The notes under the pieces: model-generated | Seen by the model: only the letters and a program-made list of their open reading frames with translations | Database searches by the model: none | What the model was told of the DNA's origin: nothing | Program-made: the position numbers and the translations under genes | Part shown: piece after piece, positions 8,261-13,970 of the stretch | How positions within the stretch are numbered: position 1 is the stretch's first letter | How the letters are laid out: the number at the start of each line of letters is the position of its first letter | Source of the DNA: Planctomycetota bacterium | GTDB lineage: Bacteria > Planctomycetota > Planctomycetia > Pirellulales > Lacipirellulaceae | Direction of reading: 5' to 3' | NCBI GenBank assembly: GCA_039190745.1 | Contig: JBCCXZ010000038.1 | Location: 1 to 35,875 of the forward strand | Length of the DNA stretch: 35,875 bases

Positions 8261-11200
8261 CTAGTCGCCCCGCAGCGCCGGCACCAGCGGGGCGCGGACC
8301 GCGGTGCGAACCGCGAGCCAGCTCGCCGCGACGCCCGATACGGCCACCAGCGTGAGCAGCACGGCGAGCGTGCCCCACGGGGCCGCGGCTTCTTGTGTGA
8401 AGGCGTGCGGGAGCACCGCCGCGAGTGCGGCGAGGCACCCAAACGCGAGCCCCACGAGCAAGAGCACTAGGTTTTCACTCAGCACAAGACGGCCGAGCTG
8501 CGAGCGGGTGAACCCCACAGCGCGGAGCAACGCAAGTTCGCCGCGGCGCTCGACGACGCTGCGGAGCTGTGCGATCGCCAGGCCGACCGTGCCGAGCAGC
8601 AGCCCGAGGCCGCCAAGGGATTGGAAAGTCGAAAGGTAGGTGTTCTGCACCGCGAGGAAGCGGGCGAGCAGCGCGTTGGCGTCGATTGCGTCGAGGCCGA
8701 AGTCGCTGAGCTCGGCTTCGAGCAGTTCGCCGAGTTTGGCCGCTTGGCCATCGACCAGAAACAGGCGGCGGCCGGCGGTCTCGGGGAACAGGCGGACAAA
8801 CCATGCGTCAGAAACCATCAGCTTGCCCTGCAACACGCTGCCGGCGAGCAGGGCGACCACTTCGAGCGTGACGGGGTTGTCGGCAGCGTCGCGGATAGTG
8901 AGCCGCGAACCGACGCCGCCTAGGTGCAGGCTGTAGGCGGCGGTGTTCTTGTCGAGCACCACGGGCACAACGGGCTCGCCCCGGTCGTCCTTGCCGAGGT
9001 CGGAGCCTAGCAGGTCCCAGGGCGAGCGGTGCTGCTTGAACAACTTGGCGGTGGAGGCCCAGCCGAAGCGGTCGCCCTCGGCGAGCGACTCGGGGACGCC
9101 GAGCACCGTCGGCTGCGCGGTTTGGTAAAGGTTCAAACAGCTCGCGTCCTCGCCGTCGTGGACGCGGAAGCCCCGGACGCGGGCGTCGGCGAGCAGGTTG
9201 CCCAGTTCATTGCCCAACCCGAGTTGCTCTCGGCCTGCTTCGGCGGCGGGGTCGTAGACGATGGGCAGGTCGGCCGTCGCGTAGAGCCCGAAGCCGCCGG
9301 TGCCGGCTTCGGTCGGGGCGAGGCGGAAGGCGCTGATCGCGACGATCAGGAAGCAGGCCACGGAGGTGAGGCCGACGGCGAGCAGCGTGCGGCCGGGGTT
9401 GCGGCGGGCGGTGATCGCGGCGAGCGAACGGGCGGCGAAGCTGGTCGGGGAGGAGTCTTCCGGGCGGCGGAGCGCGGCCCGCAGCCACGCGATCATCGCC
9501 GCGAGCACCAAGGCCCCGCTGCCGAAGAAGGCGCCGGCTTGGGCCTCGCCCTCCAGCGTAAACGCCGCGACCGAAAGCGCTGCGGCTCCGGCAAGGAGCA
9601 CGGTCCGCAAAGTGCGGCCGACACGCGCGGCGGTCTTTGCCCCTGAAACTGCTTCGGTCGTCCCGGCCAGCAGTTTCCCGGGCGGCAGCTTGAGTAGCTT
9701 GCGGAGAGACGTCAGCGAGGCGGCGACGCCGAACGCGAAGCCGATCGCCCCGCCAATGAGCAGGCTGCGCGGCGGGGTGTGTAACGACAGGAACGGTACC
9801 ACCGTCGCCTCGACCCACCAGGTCGAAAGGCCGTAGATCATCACGCGGGCGTAGGCCACGCCCGTGGGGACGCCGACCAGCGTACCGACCGCGGCAACGA
9901 CGGCGGCCTCGGTCCCTGCGTAGCGGAGTTGCTTCGCTGGAGTAAGCCCGGCTGCGCCGAGCAGGCCGAATTCCTTCGCGCGGCCGTCGACGCCCAAGCG
10001 GAAGAGCAGGACGATCAGCATCACGGCCGAGGCCATCAGGAAGAAGCTGAACCCGAGAAACAGGCCCTCGAACGGCGTCGTGCCCGAGGCGGCCTGCAGG
10101 GCTTGGGCTTTGACGGGCAGAAGTTGCATGCCCAACTCGTTGGGGTCCAGCTCCGCGGCGAGGCGAGCGGCGATGCCTTCGGCTGAATCGCCTTCGGCAA
10201 GTGGAAGACGGAGCAGGCTCACGTCGCCCCACCGCGTCTGCCACAAGCGGCGGGCCAGCGGCAGCGAGACGAACGCCTTGGGTGTGGTGCGGTAGTCGTT
10301 CCAGTAGTCCTCGTCGGCCTGGCCGATGGGCTCGACCAGTTCGAAGGGCAGGTCCCAGTCGTTGATGGAGTCTTGGTCGGTCACGCCGGGTAGGGTGGGC
10401 GTGAAGGTCGCCGCGGCAATGCGGGCCGGTGCGCCGTCAGCGGTTTGCAGCGGCACCACGGCTTTGAGCTTCAGCCGCAGGGGCTCGGCGATTTCCAGGC
10501 GGCCGTGCGTGGTTTCGGGCTCGTAGTACGTTAGCCCGACATCGTCGCCTACCGCGACGCCCAAGGCGTCGGCAGCCCAGTCGTTGAGGACGACCTCGTC
10601 TTCGGCGATAGGGATTGGCTGGCCCGACTTGTCGAGCAGCGGCCCGAGGCCGGGGCGGCTCTCGATGCCGGTGACGGTGGAGTAGGGGATCGACTTGCCG
10701 CCGGCCTCGATGGTGTTGGCAAGGTAAGTGACGACCGGCAGGGGCGCGCTATCGGCAAAGACTTTCTCGGCGGTTGCCACAACGTGACTGGGCAGGACGA
10801 GCCGGTCGCTGGCGATCACCGCGACACGGCCGCCGTCGGCAGCGGTCTCTTCTTCGACGGTGAGGCCGTAATCGGTGAGCTTGGGTTTCAATGCCCCTCG
10901 GAGCGAATCGCTCGCCGCACCGGCTCCATTGCCAGCGATCAATAGGGCGTTCGCCCGGCGGGGCAAATCGAGCACGTCTTGCAGCACGACCAGTGGAACG
11001 AACACGTTCCGCGGTCGCTGCTGGCTGGGGGCCACCGAGAAGTTCGCCAAGCCGTCGTTGGGCAACACGGCGGCCACCTCGAGCCGCCGCGAGGCGGTGG
11101 CGTCGAGCTTGTCGCCGAGCACACTCTCGGCGGGGCTGGAACCGGGCCGCGGGATTTTGAGCAGGACCGTGTCGCCCACCGCCACGGCAAGCTCCTCGGC

Positions 11201-11641
11201 GACGTTGGCCGTGAGCGCGAGCTGATTGCCGTATAGCTGCGGCTGCTGGTCGGGCGCGGATTGGTTAGCACGCAAGCCCCAGAAACCGCCGGGCGCAGCC
11301 AAGACATTGAGGCCGCTAGAGCGGCGGAGATTTCCGTCCCGCTGCAGCGTCAAGGCGCCGCGGGTTAGGATCGCGGGGACGACAAGCGGCTGTTCGTTGG
11401 CTTCGAAACTCTGAGCGAGTTCTTTGCCGAGTTCGTCTCGGAACGGGCGGCCCGCGGTGAGCACGGAGTCGACTTGGCCGAGCCGGTCGAGCGCCAAGCC
11501 GCGGAGGCTGCCGCGGACGGAGTCGCCCACGACCAGCGCGCCGGTGATGACCGCGGTCGCGACTGCCACGCCCGCGGCCACTGCGAGGTGGACGCGGCGG
11601 TAGTGCCACAGGCTGGCGCGGATGAGCTGCCATGCGTTCAT
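8261..11641 (-). CDS. Large FtsX/MacB-like ABC transporter permease
   Basis: N-terminal TM (AVITGALVVGDS), two periplasmic domains and two FtsX-type TM blocks (R.KEFGLLGAAG; ERRGELALLRAVGF). ATG 11641 is supported by the promoter position. Confidence 0.85.
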   Translation of the reverse strand: MNAWQLIRASLWHYRRVHLAVAAGVAVATAVITGALVVGDSVRGSLRGLALDRLGQVDSVLTAGRPFRDELGKELAQSFEANEQPLVVPAILTRGALTLQRDGNLRRSSGLNVLAAPGGFWGLRANQSAPDQQPQLYGNQLALTANVAEELAVAVGDTVLLKIPRPGSSPAESVLGDKLDATASRRLEVAAVLPNDGLANFSVAPSQQRPRNVFVPLVVLQDVLDLPRRANALLIAGNGAGAASDSLRGALKPKLTDYGLTVEEETAADGGRVAVIASDRLVLPSHVVATAEKVFADSAPLPVVTYLANTIEAGGKSIPYSTVTGIESRPGLGPLLDKSGQPIPIAEDEVVLNDWAADALGVAVGDDVGLTYYEPETTHGRLEIAEPLRLKLKAVVPLQTADGAPARIAAATFTPTLPGVTDQDSINDWDLPFELVEPIGQADEDYWNDYRTTPKAFVSLPLARRLWQTRWGDVSLLRLPLAEGDSAEGIAARLAAELDPNELGMQLLPVKAQALQAASGTTPFEGLFLGFSFFLMASAVMLIVLLFRLGVDGRAKEFGLLGAAGLTPAKQLRYAGTEAAVVAAVGTLVGVPTGVAYARVMIYGLSTWWVEATVVPFLSLHTPPRSLLIGGAIGFAFGVAASLTSLRKLLKLPPGKLLAGTTEAVSGAKTAARVGRTLRTVLLAGAAALSVAAFTLEGEAQAGAFFGSGALVLAAMIAWLRAALRRPEDSSPTSFAARSLAAITARRNPGRTLLAVGLTSVACFLIVAISAFRLAPTEAGTGGFGLYATADLPIVYDPAAEAGREQLGLGNELGNLLADARVRGFRVHDGEDASCLNLYQTAQPTVLGVPESLAEGDRFGWASTAKLFKQHRSPWDLLGSDLGKDDRGEPVVPVVLDKNTAAYSLHLGGVGSRLTIRDAADNPVTLEVVALLAGSVLQGKLMVSDAWFVRLFPETAGRRLFLVDGQAAKLGELLEAELSDFGLDAIDANALLARFLAVQNTYLSTFQSLGGLGLLLGTVGLAIAQLRSVVERRGELALLRAVGFTRSQLGRLVLSENLVLLLVGLAFGCLAALAAVLPHAFTQEAAAPWGTLAVLLTLVAVSGVAASWLAVRTAVRAPLVPALRGD

Positions 11642-11648
11642 GCGGGGC

Positions 11649-11657
11649 ATTATGCCA
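11649..11657 (-). promoter_or_regulatory. Extended -10 element (TGGCATAAT), probable leaderless promoter of the permease
   Basis: TGn-CATAAT ends 7 nt before ATG 11641; no SD and no properly spaced -35. Confidence 0.5.
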
Positions 11658-11682
11658 AACGACGGCCCCGAGCCGCAGGCGC

Positions 11683-11718
11683 AAAAAAAAGGCCCAGCCC
11701 GCCGAAGCGGGCAGGGCC
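11683..11718 (-). terminator. Rho-independent terminator
   Basis: GGCCC-T-GCCCGC-TTCG-GCGGGC-T-GGGCC followed by T8 on the minus strand, with a C(UUCG)G tetraloop. It begins 24 nt after the TAG at 11743. Confidence 0.88.
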
Positions 11719-11742
11719 GGAGGCATCGCTAACGGCCCGCGG

Positions 11743-11994
11743 CTAGGCGGAGGCTTTGCAGCAGGGGCTGCCGCAGTCTTCGCCGCAGTCGCAGTCGTCG
11801 CATTCGCACACTTCGCAGTTGCAGTCGCTCTACGAGGCGGTGGGGCAGTCGCACTCCTCGCAGGCGCATTCAGGGCCGCAGCAGCAAGTCCCTTCGCTTG
11901 CGACACCGGCGGTTGAGGTACCGAGGTTTTGGAAGGCTAGCCCGGCAACGGCAACCAAAGTGAATAACGACAGAATCACGCGATAACGCTTCAT
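11743..11994 (-). CDS. Exported metallothionein-like Cys-rich peptide interrupted by an in-frame TAG (11830-11832): readthrough, recent nonsense allele or sequencing error
   Basis: MKRYRVILSLFTLVAVAGLAFQNLGTSTAGVASEGTCCCGPECACEECDCPTAS*SDCNCEVCECDDCDCGEDCGSPCCKASA*. GGGGAGA SD upstream, signal-peptide-like N-terminus, 7+9 Cys. Confidence 0.7.
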
Positions 11995-12102
11995 AGAAAC
12001 TATCTCCCCGGAGAGGCATTGTCTCCGAATGAAATGCTGAACCAATGAGAAAGCAAACGGTCGCGTTGAGGCCCGGCGCAATTGAAGCGCAGGGCGGCGC
12101 CG

Positions 12103-12591
12103 TTAGTTCAGCCACACGCAGAGCAGGGCGTGTCGGGAGAGGGCGTCGGGGATCTGCGTGATCCGACAGACGAGTGATTCGAGGCCCGTCGTGGGCAGCC
12201 ACGGGCGGAGCAGCGTTACGCTGGTTGCCGCAGTGGCCCGATCGATGCGTACGCTGACCGTAGTCGGCGGTTCGGTCGTTTCCCGGTCGGGCGCTGCGCA
12301 AGCACAATCGTCGCCGCAACCGCCGGCCGCGAGGCAGGGCAGGGGAGCGAGGCTCGTAGGGCAGACCGATTCGCTCTCGCAGCAGCTGGTAGTCTTGCTG
12401 CAACAAGAGGGCGTTGCCGCGGCCGGCTTCTTCGAGTTGCTGCAGCAGCCTCCGTCAGCAGCAGCCTCGGAGTCGCAGCAGGCGCAGCCCTCGCACGCGC
12501 AGACTCCCAGAGCGTCGGCCGGCACGGCGAGCGTGGTCACCGCCAGGAGGGCGGCGAAGCGGGCGAGCTGGTGAAGTCGTTGGGAGTACAT
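12103..12591 (-). CDS. Cys-rich exported protein / possible metal-sensing leader ORF
   Basis: 162 aa with a signal-peptide-like N-terminus, 18 Cys in CxC/CC clusters, a Thr/Pro-rich linker and C-terminal RHALLCVWLN. Confidence 0.65.
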   Translation of the reverse strand: MYSQRLHQLARFAALLAVTTLAVPADALGVCACEGCACCDSEAAADGGCCSNSKKPAAATPSCCSKTTSCCESESVCPTSLAPLPCLAAGGCGDDCACAAPDRETTEPPTTVSVRIDRATAATSVTLLRPWLPTTGLESLVCRITQIPDALSRHALLCVWLN

Positions 12592-12633
12592 AGGCGGAGC
12601 GCACGCATTGCGGAGAACTACTTCCTATACGCA

Positions 12634-12663
12634 AGAATACGGAACGGGGTCGGCCGGCCGCAA
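12634..12663 (-). promoter_or_regulatory. Possible sigma70-like promoter for the Cys-rich pair
   Basis: TTGCGG-N18-TATTCT about 40 nt upstream of ATG 12591. Confidence 0.3.
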
Positions 12664-12695
12664 GGGAATTTTTGGCCTGTCATACTGGGCCCTGC

Positions 12696-13970
12696 CTAGC
12701 TGACCGCTTTATCGGAGATATCCTTGCGACACCATGCCCCGTCCCAGCGGATGCACTTTACGGCGGTGTAGGCCCCGAGCTTGGCGGCGGAGATCGTGTC
12801 GCCGATGGCCGTGACGCCGAGCACGCGCCCGCCGCTGGTGACCACTTGCTCGCCCTTGAGCTTGGTTCCGGCGTGAAAGACTTTCACGTCCTCAACCTGG
12901 CCCGCGTCTGCCAAGCCGCGGATGGGGTGACCGGTGGTGTAGCGGCCCGGGTAGCCTTCGCTGGCCATGACGACGCAGACGGCCGGGCGCGGGTCCCACT
13001 CAAGCGGCTGGAGCTGATTGAGCCGCCCCTCCGCGGTCGCGAGCATCAGTTCAACCAGGTCGCTCTTCAGGCGCATCAGCAGGGGCTGGCACTCGGGGTC
13101 GCCGAAGCGGACGTTGTACTCCAGCACGCGGGGGCCACTCTTGGTGAGCATCAGCCCCGCGTACAGCACGCCGCGGAACGGCCGGCGGGCGCGCTTCATA
13201 TGGTGGACTGTCGGAACGAGCACCGTTTCTTCGATCGTGGCGAGCAAGCTGTCGGTGGCGAAAGGTGTCGGCGAGTAAGCCCCCATGCCGCCGGTGTTGG
13301 GGCCGGTGTCGCCGTCGTGGGCGGGCTTGTGGTCCTGAGCGGCGGGCAGCGTGACGATGGTCTTGCCGTCGGTCACGGCGAGTACGCTCACCTCTTGGCC
13401 GGAGAGCCGTTCTTCAATGACCAGCTTGTTGCCGGCGTCGCCGAACTCCCGGTCGCCGGCGATCCGCGCGACCGCCTCGAGCGCTTCCTCACGGTTGTCG
13501 CAAACGACAACGCCCTTGCCAGCGGCCAAGCCATCGGCCTTTACCACCACCGACGCGTCGTCACGCTCGGTGAGGTAGACCGACGCTTCGCGGGCATCGA
13601 GGAAGGTGCGGAACTCGGCGCTGGGCACGTCGGCGTGGCGGAGCAGGTTCTTGCAGAAGACCTTGCTGGCTTCGAGTTCTGCCGCTTGCTCGCTCGGGCC
13701 GAAGGCGGGGATGCCGGCTTCGGTCATCCGGTCGGCGAGCCCAGCCGCGAGCGGTGCCTCGGGGCCCACCACGGCGAGCCCGACCTGATTCTGGCGGGCA
13801 AACTCGACCAAAGCGGGCAGGTCGCTGTCGGGGATGTCGACGTTCTCCGCGTCGGAACCGGTGCCAGCATTGCCCGGGGCAACAAAAACCCGCTTGGCAA
13901 GCGGGCTCTGCGAGGCTTTCCACGCTAGAGCGTGCTCACGCCCGCCGCCGCCCACAACAAGGATGTTCAT
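12696..13970 (-). CDS. purD: Phosphoribosylamine--glycine ligase
   Basis: GGGGREHAL, APGNAG, GPEAPL, KADGLAAGKGV, QDHK...GPNTGGMGAY, EYNVRFGDPE, GGRVL. Confidence 0.98.
   Translation of the reverse strand: MNILVVGGGGREHALAWKASQSPLAKRVFVAPGNAGTGSDAENVDIPDSDLPALVEFARQNQVGLAVVGPEAPLAAGLADRMTEAGIPAFGPSEQAAELEASKVFCKNLLRHADVPSAEFRTFLDAREASVYLTERDDASVVVKADGLAAGKGVVVCDNREEALEAVARIAGDREFGDAGNKLVIEERLSGQEVSVLAVTDGKTIVTLPAAQDHKPAHDGDTGPNTGGMGAYSPTPFATDSLLATIEETVLVPTVHHMKRARRPFRGVLYAGLMLTKSGPRVLEYNVRFGDPECQPLLMRLKSDLVELMLATAEGRLNQLQPLEWDPRPAVCVVMASEGYPGRYTTGHPIRGLADAGQVEDVKVFHAGTKLKGEQVVTSGGRVLGVTAIGDTISAAKLGAYTAVKCIRWDGAWCRKDISDKAVS

What the first reader, a model, noticed from the sequence alone, without database searches (positions are those of the whole stretch)
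11743..11994. Hidden exported metallothionein-like gene with an in-frame amber codon between its two Cys clusters
Seen: the ORF track stops at TAG 11830-11832, but the same frame continues for 28 more codons, SDCNCEVCECDDCDCGEDCGSPCCKASA*. This tail has 9 Cys, all TGC, with GC3-rich codons, and repeats the CxCxxCxC pattern of the first cluster (CACEECDC vs CNCEVCEC and CECDDCDC). The TAG falls in the Cys-free linker (PTAS*SD), and the terminator starts 24 nt after the second TAG, so the long form looks like the real gene. Known: characterised bacterial metallothioneins (SmtA/BmtA, MymT) are cytoplasmic, and amber suppression is favoured by a 3' purine (context here is UAG-A). Inference: either programmed readthrough giving 7-Cys and 16-Cys isoforms of an exported acidic metal-binding peptide, or a very recent nonsense mutation or base-call error. 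In each case annotation pipelines would truncate or miss it.
Basis: partly seen in the sequence, partly recalled or inferred. Interest (0 to 1): 0.85.

Follow-up and report, generated by a model that had tools for sequence, protein, structure and literature searches.

The report
Broken copy of exported cysteine-rich peptide
The stop codon in the middle of this small gene occurs in no relative examined, and this genome assembly has similar stray stops in core genes, so it is likely a sequence error or recent mutation rather than programmed readthrough; the gene itself belongs to an uncatalogued family of cysteine-packed peptides predicted to be exported and to bind metal.

Summary
The sequence observation holds: on the minus strand an 83-codon frame (11994-11743) has TAG at codon 55, a 28-codon tail with 9 TGC cysteines, then a terminator. 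The recoding idea does not hold. The TAG is not in a linker: it replaces a cysteine kept in 53 of 55 aligned relatives, and none of 65 other family sequences has a stop there. TAG is this genome's commonest stop; no pyrrolysine system or CUA tRNA was found. The same assembly has single in-frame stops inside map, greA, rho, uvrA and a sigma factor, whereas map is intact in 40 of 40 relatives. The TAG is therefore most likely one private lesion among about twenty. Artefact versus recent mutation is unresolved: a second assembly of the probable source run also shows it. The gene is real: a Lacipirellulaceae-centred family without Pfam or NCBIfam match, with a signal-peptide-like start, usually behind a cysteine-rich leader-like gene. 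Export and metal binding are inferred. The scan noted such exported pairs before on other DNA, including Pirellulales.

The parts
11743..11994 (-). Full reading frame of the cysteine-rich peptide gene (83 codons plus stop), interrupted at codon 55
   Evidence: 65% identity to the intact 84-aa orthologue in G001 at the same locus
11830..11832 (-). In-frame TAG at codon 55, in place of a conserved Cys codon; two base changes away from TGC or TGT
   Evidence: Cys in 53 of 55 aligned rows, TGC in 40 of 41 loci with the full pattern; same letters in a contig of run X1
11935..11994 (-). Signal-peptide-like start (basic N-terminus, hydrophobic stretch, small residues); cleavage site not determined
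   Evidence: sequence; best 12-residue hydropathy 2.8, and 1.7 or more in 60 of 63 family sequences; no signal-peptide predictor was run
11845..11886 (-). First 7 cysteines (codons 37-50)
   Evidence: 7 of 7 kept in G001
11746..11829 (-). Tail after the stop (codons 56-83), 9 cysteines, undecayed
   Evidence: 9 of 9 Cys kept in G001, GC3 0.86
12003..12009 (-). Shine-Dalgarno-like GGGGAGA, 8 nt before the ATG
   Evidence: sequence; conserved in G001
11683..11718 (-). Intrinsic-terminator-like stem-loop and T run
   Evidence: also present in G001 (z -4.74)
12103..12591 (-). Upstream 162-aa cysteine-rich gene with a hydrophobic start and a conserved C-terminal motif; candidate metal-sensing leader gene
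   Evidence: the same kind of end found upstream in 44 of 63 loci by pattern match; no Pfam or NCBIfam match
8261..11641 (-). Downstream FtsX-type ABC permease gene, a frequent neighbour beyond the terminator
   Evidence: Pfam FtsX E 1.4e-27; found downstream in 26 of 63 loci by pattern match

Best explanation
The TAG at codon 55 replaces a conserved cysteine in this genome only and is most likely an unprogrammed lesion (a sequence artefact or a recent nonsense mutation) in a conserved gene whose product is predicted to be exported and to bind metal through its cysteines. Shown: the gene, its family, the conserved Cys column, the absence of this stop in relatives, and other single stops in core genes of the same assembly. 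Inferred: if the TAG is real, release factor 1 ends translation there and a 7-Cys fragment is made; the tail looks intact only because the change is recent or not biological. Artefact and real mutation are about equally likely (roughly 0.4 and 0.45). Inferred for the intact family protein: Sec export, cleavage, then 15 to 17 cysteines per unit wrap soft metal ions (copper, zinc or cadmium) outside the cytoplasm, possibly under the control of the upstream cysteine-rich gene (about 0.55 for the metal role).
For: Cys in 53 of 55 rows at this column, no stop; no other of 63 family sequences has a patterned Cys tail behind a stop (L075 has 4 scattered Cys behind its stop), three more from the phylum search end normally. 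TAG ends 1353 of 3124 called genes; an intact RF1-type gene is present. No PylS or PylB over cut-off; no CUA tRNA among 48 tRNAs, the one sub-threshold candidate folds badly. No unusual RNA structure after the stop (z 0.32). In 1145 gene alignments to G001, single stops lie inside uvrA, a sigma-70 gene, rho, map, a short-chain reductase and a GxxExxY gene, opposite D, E, E, K, Y and E; greA as well. map has one copy in 41 of 41 genomes and a stop only in G000; greA a stop in 1 of 39. The stop classes fit random single changes (expected TAG 62%, TAA 24%, TGA 15%). Other family members carry unrelated lesions (L051, L060, L035).
Against: A contig of run X1 covers 11143-13000 without a difference at depth 8.9, so it is not a slip of one assembler; X1 may be the source, so this is not independent. 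TAG is two base changes from TGC or TGT, so a single error or mutation does not explain it unless this lineage had already lost the Cys; the preceding four residues lack the Gly found in 38 of 41 relatives. All five core-gene stops are TAG and the four accessory-gene stops outside this gene are TAA, which leaves room for amber suppression. mutY, mutM and mutS are intact, against a simple mutator. No second sample of this species was found.
Confidence: 0.86

Rival explanations
1. Organism-wide amber suppression: a suppressor tRNA missing from this assembly reads UAG, so TAG codons are tolerated inside core genes and in this gene.
For: TAG inside map, greA, rho, uvrA and a sigma factor, five of five core-gene stops; map is single-copy. 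The assembly is 95% complete and lacks several ordinary tRNAs. Glu lies opposite two of them in the G001 alignments and probably opposite the greA stop (recalled family motif).
Against: TAG ends 43% of genes, so efficient suppression would be costly; residues opposite the stops differ (D, E, E, K, C); TAA stops occur inside genes too; the class counts fit random change; no CUA tRNA found; G001 shows no such stops in recognisable genes among 1158 alignments (judged by eye).
Confidence: 0.06
2. Programmed readthrough at this codon gives a short 7-Cys and a long 16-Cys isoform, perhaps tuned by metal.
For: Tail intact, 9 of 9 Cys and GC3 0.86; terminator after the second stop; two-base distance from a Cys codon and a diverged neighbourhood would fit an older, tolerated stop; TAG present in both assemblies.
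Against: Not conserved in any of 65 other sequences, including the congener. tRNA-Cys(GCA) has two mismatches to UAG, so near-cognate readthrough would not restore the ligand (single-mismatch rule, PMC7026636 passages). No structure signal. An intact tail only bounds neutral divergence to under about 0.125 per site, which a recent change also satisfies. The assembly has a background of such stops.
Confidence: 0.04
3. Function rival: the exported family protein is a disulfide-bonded envelope or scaffold peptide, not a metal sponge.
For: Exported cysteines are usually oxidised (established knowledge); cysteine-rich envelope proteins in planctomycetes are recalled, not checked; no match to SmtA/BmtA or MymT models or structures.
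Against: Odd Cys counts in 45 of 63 sequences (kin are not independent) cannot all pair within one chain; CxC and CxxC spacing, 35% Cys, no aromatic residue in the Cys region; 2 of 26 members hit metallothionein Pfam models, 1 over cut-off; the upstream gene resembles metal-sensing leaders.
Confidence: 0.25
4. The TAG is read as pyrrolysine or selenocysteine.
For: The genome has selB and tRNA-Sec, and the codon sits at a Cys position, where selenocysteine often stands.
Against: tRNA-Sec has the UCA anticodon; no relative has TGA at this column; no PylS or PylB; no distinctive hairpin.
Confidence: 0.01

Closest known systems
Bacterial metallothioneins SmtA/BmtA and MymT (PMC7558416, section 4.3 read)
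   Same: Small, very cysteine-rich, CxC and CxxC spacing, few or no aromatic residues; easily missed by annotation, as MymT was.
   Different: Signal-peptide-like start; no His in the Cys region; strongly acidic; no profile, sequence or fold match; metal binding untested.
CutF / CruR (DUF2946) metal-sensing leader genes (PMC9973294 passages; PMC9426467 abstract)
   Same: The upstream gene has a hydrophobic start, Cys motifs and a conserved C-terminal motif, and ends 65-220 nt before a candidate metal-handling exported gene.
   Different: No DUF2946 match; the end motif is not proline-rich or RAPP; shielding of the ribosome-binding site was not above its control.
Periplasmic copper storage proteins Csp1/Csp2 (PMC7558416 passages)
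   Same: Exported, Cys-rich metal store.
   Different: Csps are Tat-exported four-helix bundles; here only 2 of 63 sequences have RR in the first 8 residues and no helical bundle is predicted.
Programmed stop-codon readthrough and Sec/Pyl recoding (PMC7026636 passages)
   Same: An in-frame stop followed by a coding-like extension.
   Different: The stop is not conserved, has no structure signal or dedicated tRNA, and cuts a conserved domain instead of adding an extension.

Membership tests
Programmed readthrough site | Stop codon conserved at the same position in relatives with a conserved extension | tested here: not met
   0 of 65 other sequences; Cys in 53 of 55 aligned rows
Programmed readthrough site | Stimulatory context or downstream RNA structure | tested here: not met
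   fold z 0.32 and -0.83; UAG-A is 179 of 1086 terminal TAG contexts; no Rfam match at gathering level
Programmed readthrough site | Measured readthrough product | not testable with these tools
   no proteomic or ribosome-profiling data available
Pyrrolysine (UAG) decoding | PylS, Pyl biosynthesis and tRNA-Pyl(CUA) | tested here: not met
   PylS and PylB below cut-off; no credible CUA tRNA; assembly 95% complete
Selenocysteine decoding | Codon matching the tRNA-Sec anticodon plus SECIS | tested here: not met
   tRNA-Sec(UCA) reads UGA, the codon is UAG; no distinctive hairpin
Genome-wide UAG reassignment | TAG depleted as stop and opposite one amino acid in conserved genes | tested here: not met
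   TAG is the commonest stop; opposite D, E, E, K, C, W; RF1-type gene intact
Metallothionein (functional superfamily) | Small, Cys-rich, CxC/CxxC motifs, few aromatics | tested here: met
   35% Cys, 0 aromatic, 0 His in residues 37-84 of G001
Metallothionein (functional superfamily) | Metal-thiolate clusters, several metal ions per chain | not testable with these tools
   needs purified protein; model pLDDT 54
SmtA/BmtA family | Sequence or fold match to the zinc-finger metallothionein | tested here: not met
   no NCBIfam hit; no bacterial metallothionein Pfam hit in 26 members at E up to 1; no PDB sequence match; fold search empty but the model is weak
Sec-exported protein | Tripartite cleavable signal peptide | tested here: inconclusive
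   basic start and hydrophobic stretch in 60 of 63 sequences; no predictor or experiment
CutF/CruR leader gene (upstream ORF) | DUF2946 match and proline-rich or RAPP C-terminus | tested here: not met
   ends in a different conserved motif
CutF/CruR leader gene (upstream ORF) | Stem-loop shielding the downstream ribosome-binding site | tested here: inconclusive
   paired in G000 and G001 folds; mean pairing 0.80 against 0.77 in shuffled-spacer controls over 45 loci, 0.62 in 120 other genes

The most novel reading that the evidence does not exclude
This planctomycete naturally reads UAG ambiguously: it keeps UAG as its main stop yet tolerates it inside map, greA, rho, uvrA, a sigma factor and this exported metallothionein-like gene through an unassembled suppressor, yielding short and long metal-binding isoforms.
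Probability: 0.06. Interest if true: 0.85.

Novelty: new variant of a known kind. Interest (0 to 1): 0.28.

Why it matters
The recoding claim, which carried most of the first score, does not stand, and other in-frame stops reported from this assembly should be read against its background of about 2 changes in 10,000 bases. What remains is an uncatalogued family (47 of 120 genomes of the family) of predicted exported metallothionein-like peptides behind a leader-like gene. If metal binding outside the cytoplasm were shown, it would extend bacterial metallothioneins beyond the cytoplasm; the intact G001 copy, not this one, is the copy to test.

Tried and rejected
Sequencing runs: no RNA holder listed; one DNA holder, possibly the source; X2 and X3 do not hold the stretch. 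Exact DNA pattern around the stop in metagenome contigs: 0 matches, near-identical records may be left out. Word-index protein searches: nothing. The look-up by exact sequence could not be made, so other records of this very protein stay unchecked. Copy of the stop region from elsewhere in the genome: no 16-base word occurs twice. Mutator: mutY, mutM, mutS intact; mutL and mutT not tested. Oxidative G-to-T signature: no asymmetry among missense differences; excess among stops not significant. Laying X1 contigs on the rho region: the rho stop is not bridged by a listed long piece, inconclusive; 5 substitutions and 1 insertion in about 16.6 kb of main pieces, 4 of 5 matching G001 and 3 of 4 coding ones silent, which looks like strain variation rather than error. 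Codon-score scans for interrupted genes were noisy (110 rows in G000, 78 in G001, mostly wrong frames) or insensitive. Loose tRNA scan: 2252 hits, noise. PF18490 was a mis-recalled accession and says nothing on pyrrolysine. Structure model weak, fold search empty. Atlas hits under 0.9 for the peptide. Leader-type shielding of the ribosome-binding site: not above control.

Full report
1. Observation. The frame is on the minus strand, ATG at 11994, TAG at codon 55 (11830-11832), 28 more sense codons with 9 TGC cysteines, TAG at 11743-11745. A Shine-Dalgarno-like GGGGAGA lies 8 nt before the ATG. A stem-loop with 8 T begins 24 nt after the last stop.

2. The gene is real and has a family. A search of 61 genomes with the read-through frame matched 18, counting G000. 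A 12-row profile matched 47 of 120 genomes of the family and 36 of 401 of the order; a 55-row profile matched 4 of 401 of the phylum, counting G000. A record title names the family Lacipirellulaceae for the congener's locus. After removing duplicates I had 63 distinct locus-derived sequences including G000, plus 3 from the phylum search. The congener G001 has the same gene order, an intact 84-aa gene with 17 Cys and the same terminator. No Pfam or NCBIfam model matches the G000 or G001 protein; 2 of 26 members tested hit eukaryotic metallothionein models, 1 over cut-off.

3. The stop replaces a conserved cysteine. G001 has TGT at codon 55. In alignment A3 (55 rows: 40 locus-derived sequences and 15 of the 29 representatives; left out were G000, most long repeat forms and broken or cut copies) the column is Cys in 53 and gap in 2; the codon is TGC in 40 of 41 loci with the full pattern. 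So the 'Cys-free linker' is made by the stop itself. Among the 63 sequences only G000 has a patterned Cys tail behind a stop; L075 has 4 scattered Cys after its stop, three others 3. Unrelated lesions occur in other members: a TAG in the signal region (L051), an early end (L060), a Cys-to-Phe change (L035).

4. No decoding machinery for UAG. TAG ends 1353 of 3124 genes called by my codon model. An RF1-type gene is intact (motif assignment recalled). PylS and PylB are below cut-off. None of 48 tRNAs has CUA; the one sub-threshold candidate has a poor cloverleaf. selB and tRNA-Sec(UCA) exist but serve UGA. The RNA after the stop folds no better than shuffles. Near-cognate readthrough uses tRNAs with one mismatch (PMC7026636, passages); tRNA-Cys has two to UAG, so the ligand would not be restored (inference).

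5. The assembly has a background of such stops. I compared 2.4 of 4.9 Mb of G001 with G000. In 1145 alignments (402,635 codons) 23 stops appeared; 10 passed a flank-identity filter: uvrA, a sigma-70 gene, rho, map, a short-chain reductase, a GxxExxY gene, this gene, one unidentified frame and two that look like wrong frames. A codon scan added greA and two accessory genes. The reverse comparison gave 30 stops in 1158 alignments, by eye all at gene ends or in wrong frames; a transposase-like frame of G001 does carry an internal TAG. map is single-copy in 41 of 41 genomes and broken only in G000; greA is broken in 1 of 39. The map stop lies before the last conserved motif, and map is essential in model bacteria (established knowledge), so at least some stops are unlikely to be true null alleles. 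Six or seven stops imply 1.6 to 1.9 changes per 10,000 bases, about twenty nonsense codons per genome (extrapolated). They are enriched in genes at least 93% identical (P 0.013 to 0.033, noticed after the fact), where metagenome assembly is most tangled (inference).

6. Artefact or mutation. A contig of run X1 spans 11143-13000 with no difference at depth 8.9; X1 may be the source. In the rho region the two assemblies differ at 5 bases and 1 insertion, mostly like strain variation, and the rho stop itself is not bridged by a listed long piece. TAG needs two changes from a Cys codon. Either this lineage lost the Cys first (the four residues before it lack the Gly of 38 of 41 relatives; divergence of the non-Cys codons alone is unremarkable, P 0.24) and one further change made the stop, or one clustered event did both; the sigma stop also has a second damaging change 21 bases on. 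The intact tail bounds neutral divergence only to under about 0.125 per site. I cannot separate the two and give them about equal weight.

7. How the intact gene likely works. Shown: hydrophobic start in 60 of 63 sequences, twin arginines in 2 of 63, odd Cys counts in 45 of 63, an upstream Cys-rich gene with a conserved end in 44 of 63 and a downstream ABC permease in 26 of 63 (pattern matches that miss some, flanks short in some). The Cys region of G001 is 35% Cys, acidic, without His or aromatic residues. Inferred: Sec export and metal-thiolate binding outside the cytoplasm (about 0.55), or disulfide-bonded envelope material (about 0.25). The upstream gene works like a CutF/CruR leader in layout (PMC9973294, passages; PMC9426467, abstract) but fails the DUF2946 and proline-rich-end tests, and shielding of the ribosome-binding site was not above control. 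The model is weak (pLDDT 54) and matched no solved structure.

8. Literature. SmtA and MymT definitions come from PMC7558416 (passages and section 4.3). PMC7387436 gave only reference-list hits. Searches in the held library for planctomycete or signal-peptide-bearing natural metallothioneins gave 0, 1, 35 and 1 papers; from the listings (20 of the 35 shown) none describes this family. A search on premature stops in assembled genomes gave 0. No supplements were read, and most subscription papers are not held, so absence from print is not shown. Earlier scan notes describe exported cysteine-rich pairs in other genomes, one in Pirellulales; they are unchecked notes, not support.

9. Verdict. The gene is real and belongs to an uncatalogued family; the amber codon is in the assembled sequence but is most likely a private lesion (0.86), not recoding. 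Interest 0.28.

Noticed in passing
G000 C33:9627, C41:15077, C23:50449, C40:3733, C35:21229 (loci L218-L222): Single in-frame TAG inside map, greA, rho, uvrA and a sigma-70 gene; a quality warning for this assembly, or a remote hint of amber suppression.
   Followed up: partly
G000 C73:14579, C17:35232, C3:26954, C8:34904 (loci L223-L226): Single in-frame TAA inside a short-chain reductase, a GxxExxY gene, an unnamed membrane protein and a large exported protein.
   Followed up: partly
window 12103-12591 (-): Cys-rich gene with hydrophobic start and a conserved end motif, found before the peptide gene in 44 of 63 loci; its last codons pair with the spacer in G000 and G001 folds. Candidate leader gene of a type without a proline-rich end.
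   Followed up: partly
L003, L008, L010, L050, L057, L058, L062, L063: Family members with internal duplications or long expansions, 29 to 42 Cys, like repeat-expanded metallothioneins.
   Followed up: no
L051:524-526; L060; L035; L075: Other damaged or odd copies: TAG in the signal region, an early end, a Cys-to-Phe change, and 4 scattered Cys behind a TAA.
   Followed up: partly
window 14418-34460 (+): Long respiratory cluster: Rieske protein, cytochrome b, a 1533-aa multi-heme cytochrome c, cytochrome c oxidase subunits, heme assembly genes, ABC transporter and SCO1/SenC; copper-demanding genes 2.5 kb from the peptide gene, linkage in relatives not checked.
   Followed up: no
G000 C4:22163 (-): In-frame TGA in a 1391-codon frame with a hairpin behind it; matches an earlier scan note on a selenoprotein.
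   Followed up: no
L218:11174-11187, 13124, 18900, 7324: The two assemblies of this population differ at a few mostly silent sites, so the sequenced population appears to hold more than one strain.
   Followed up: partly
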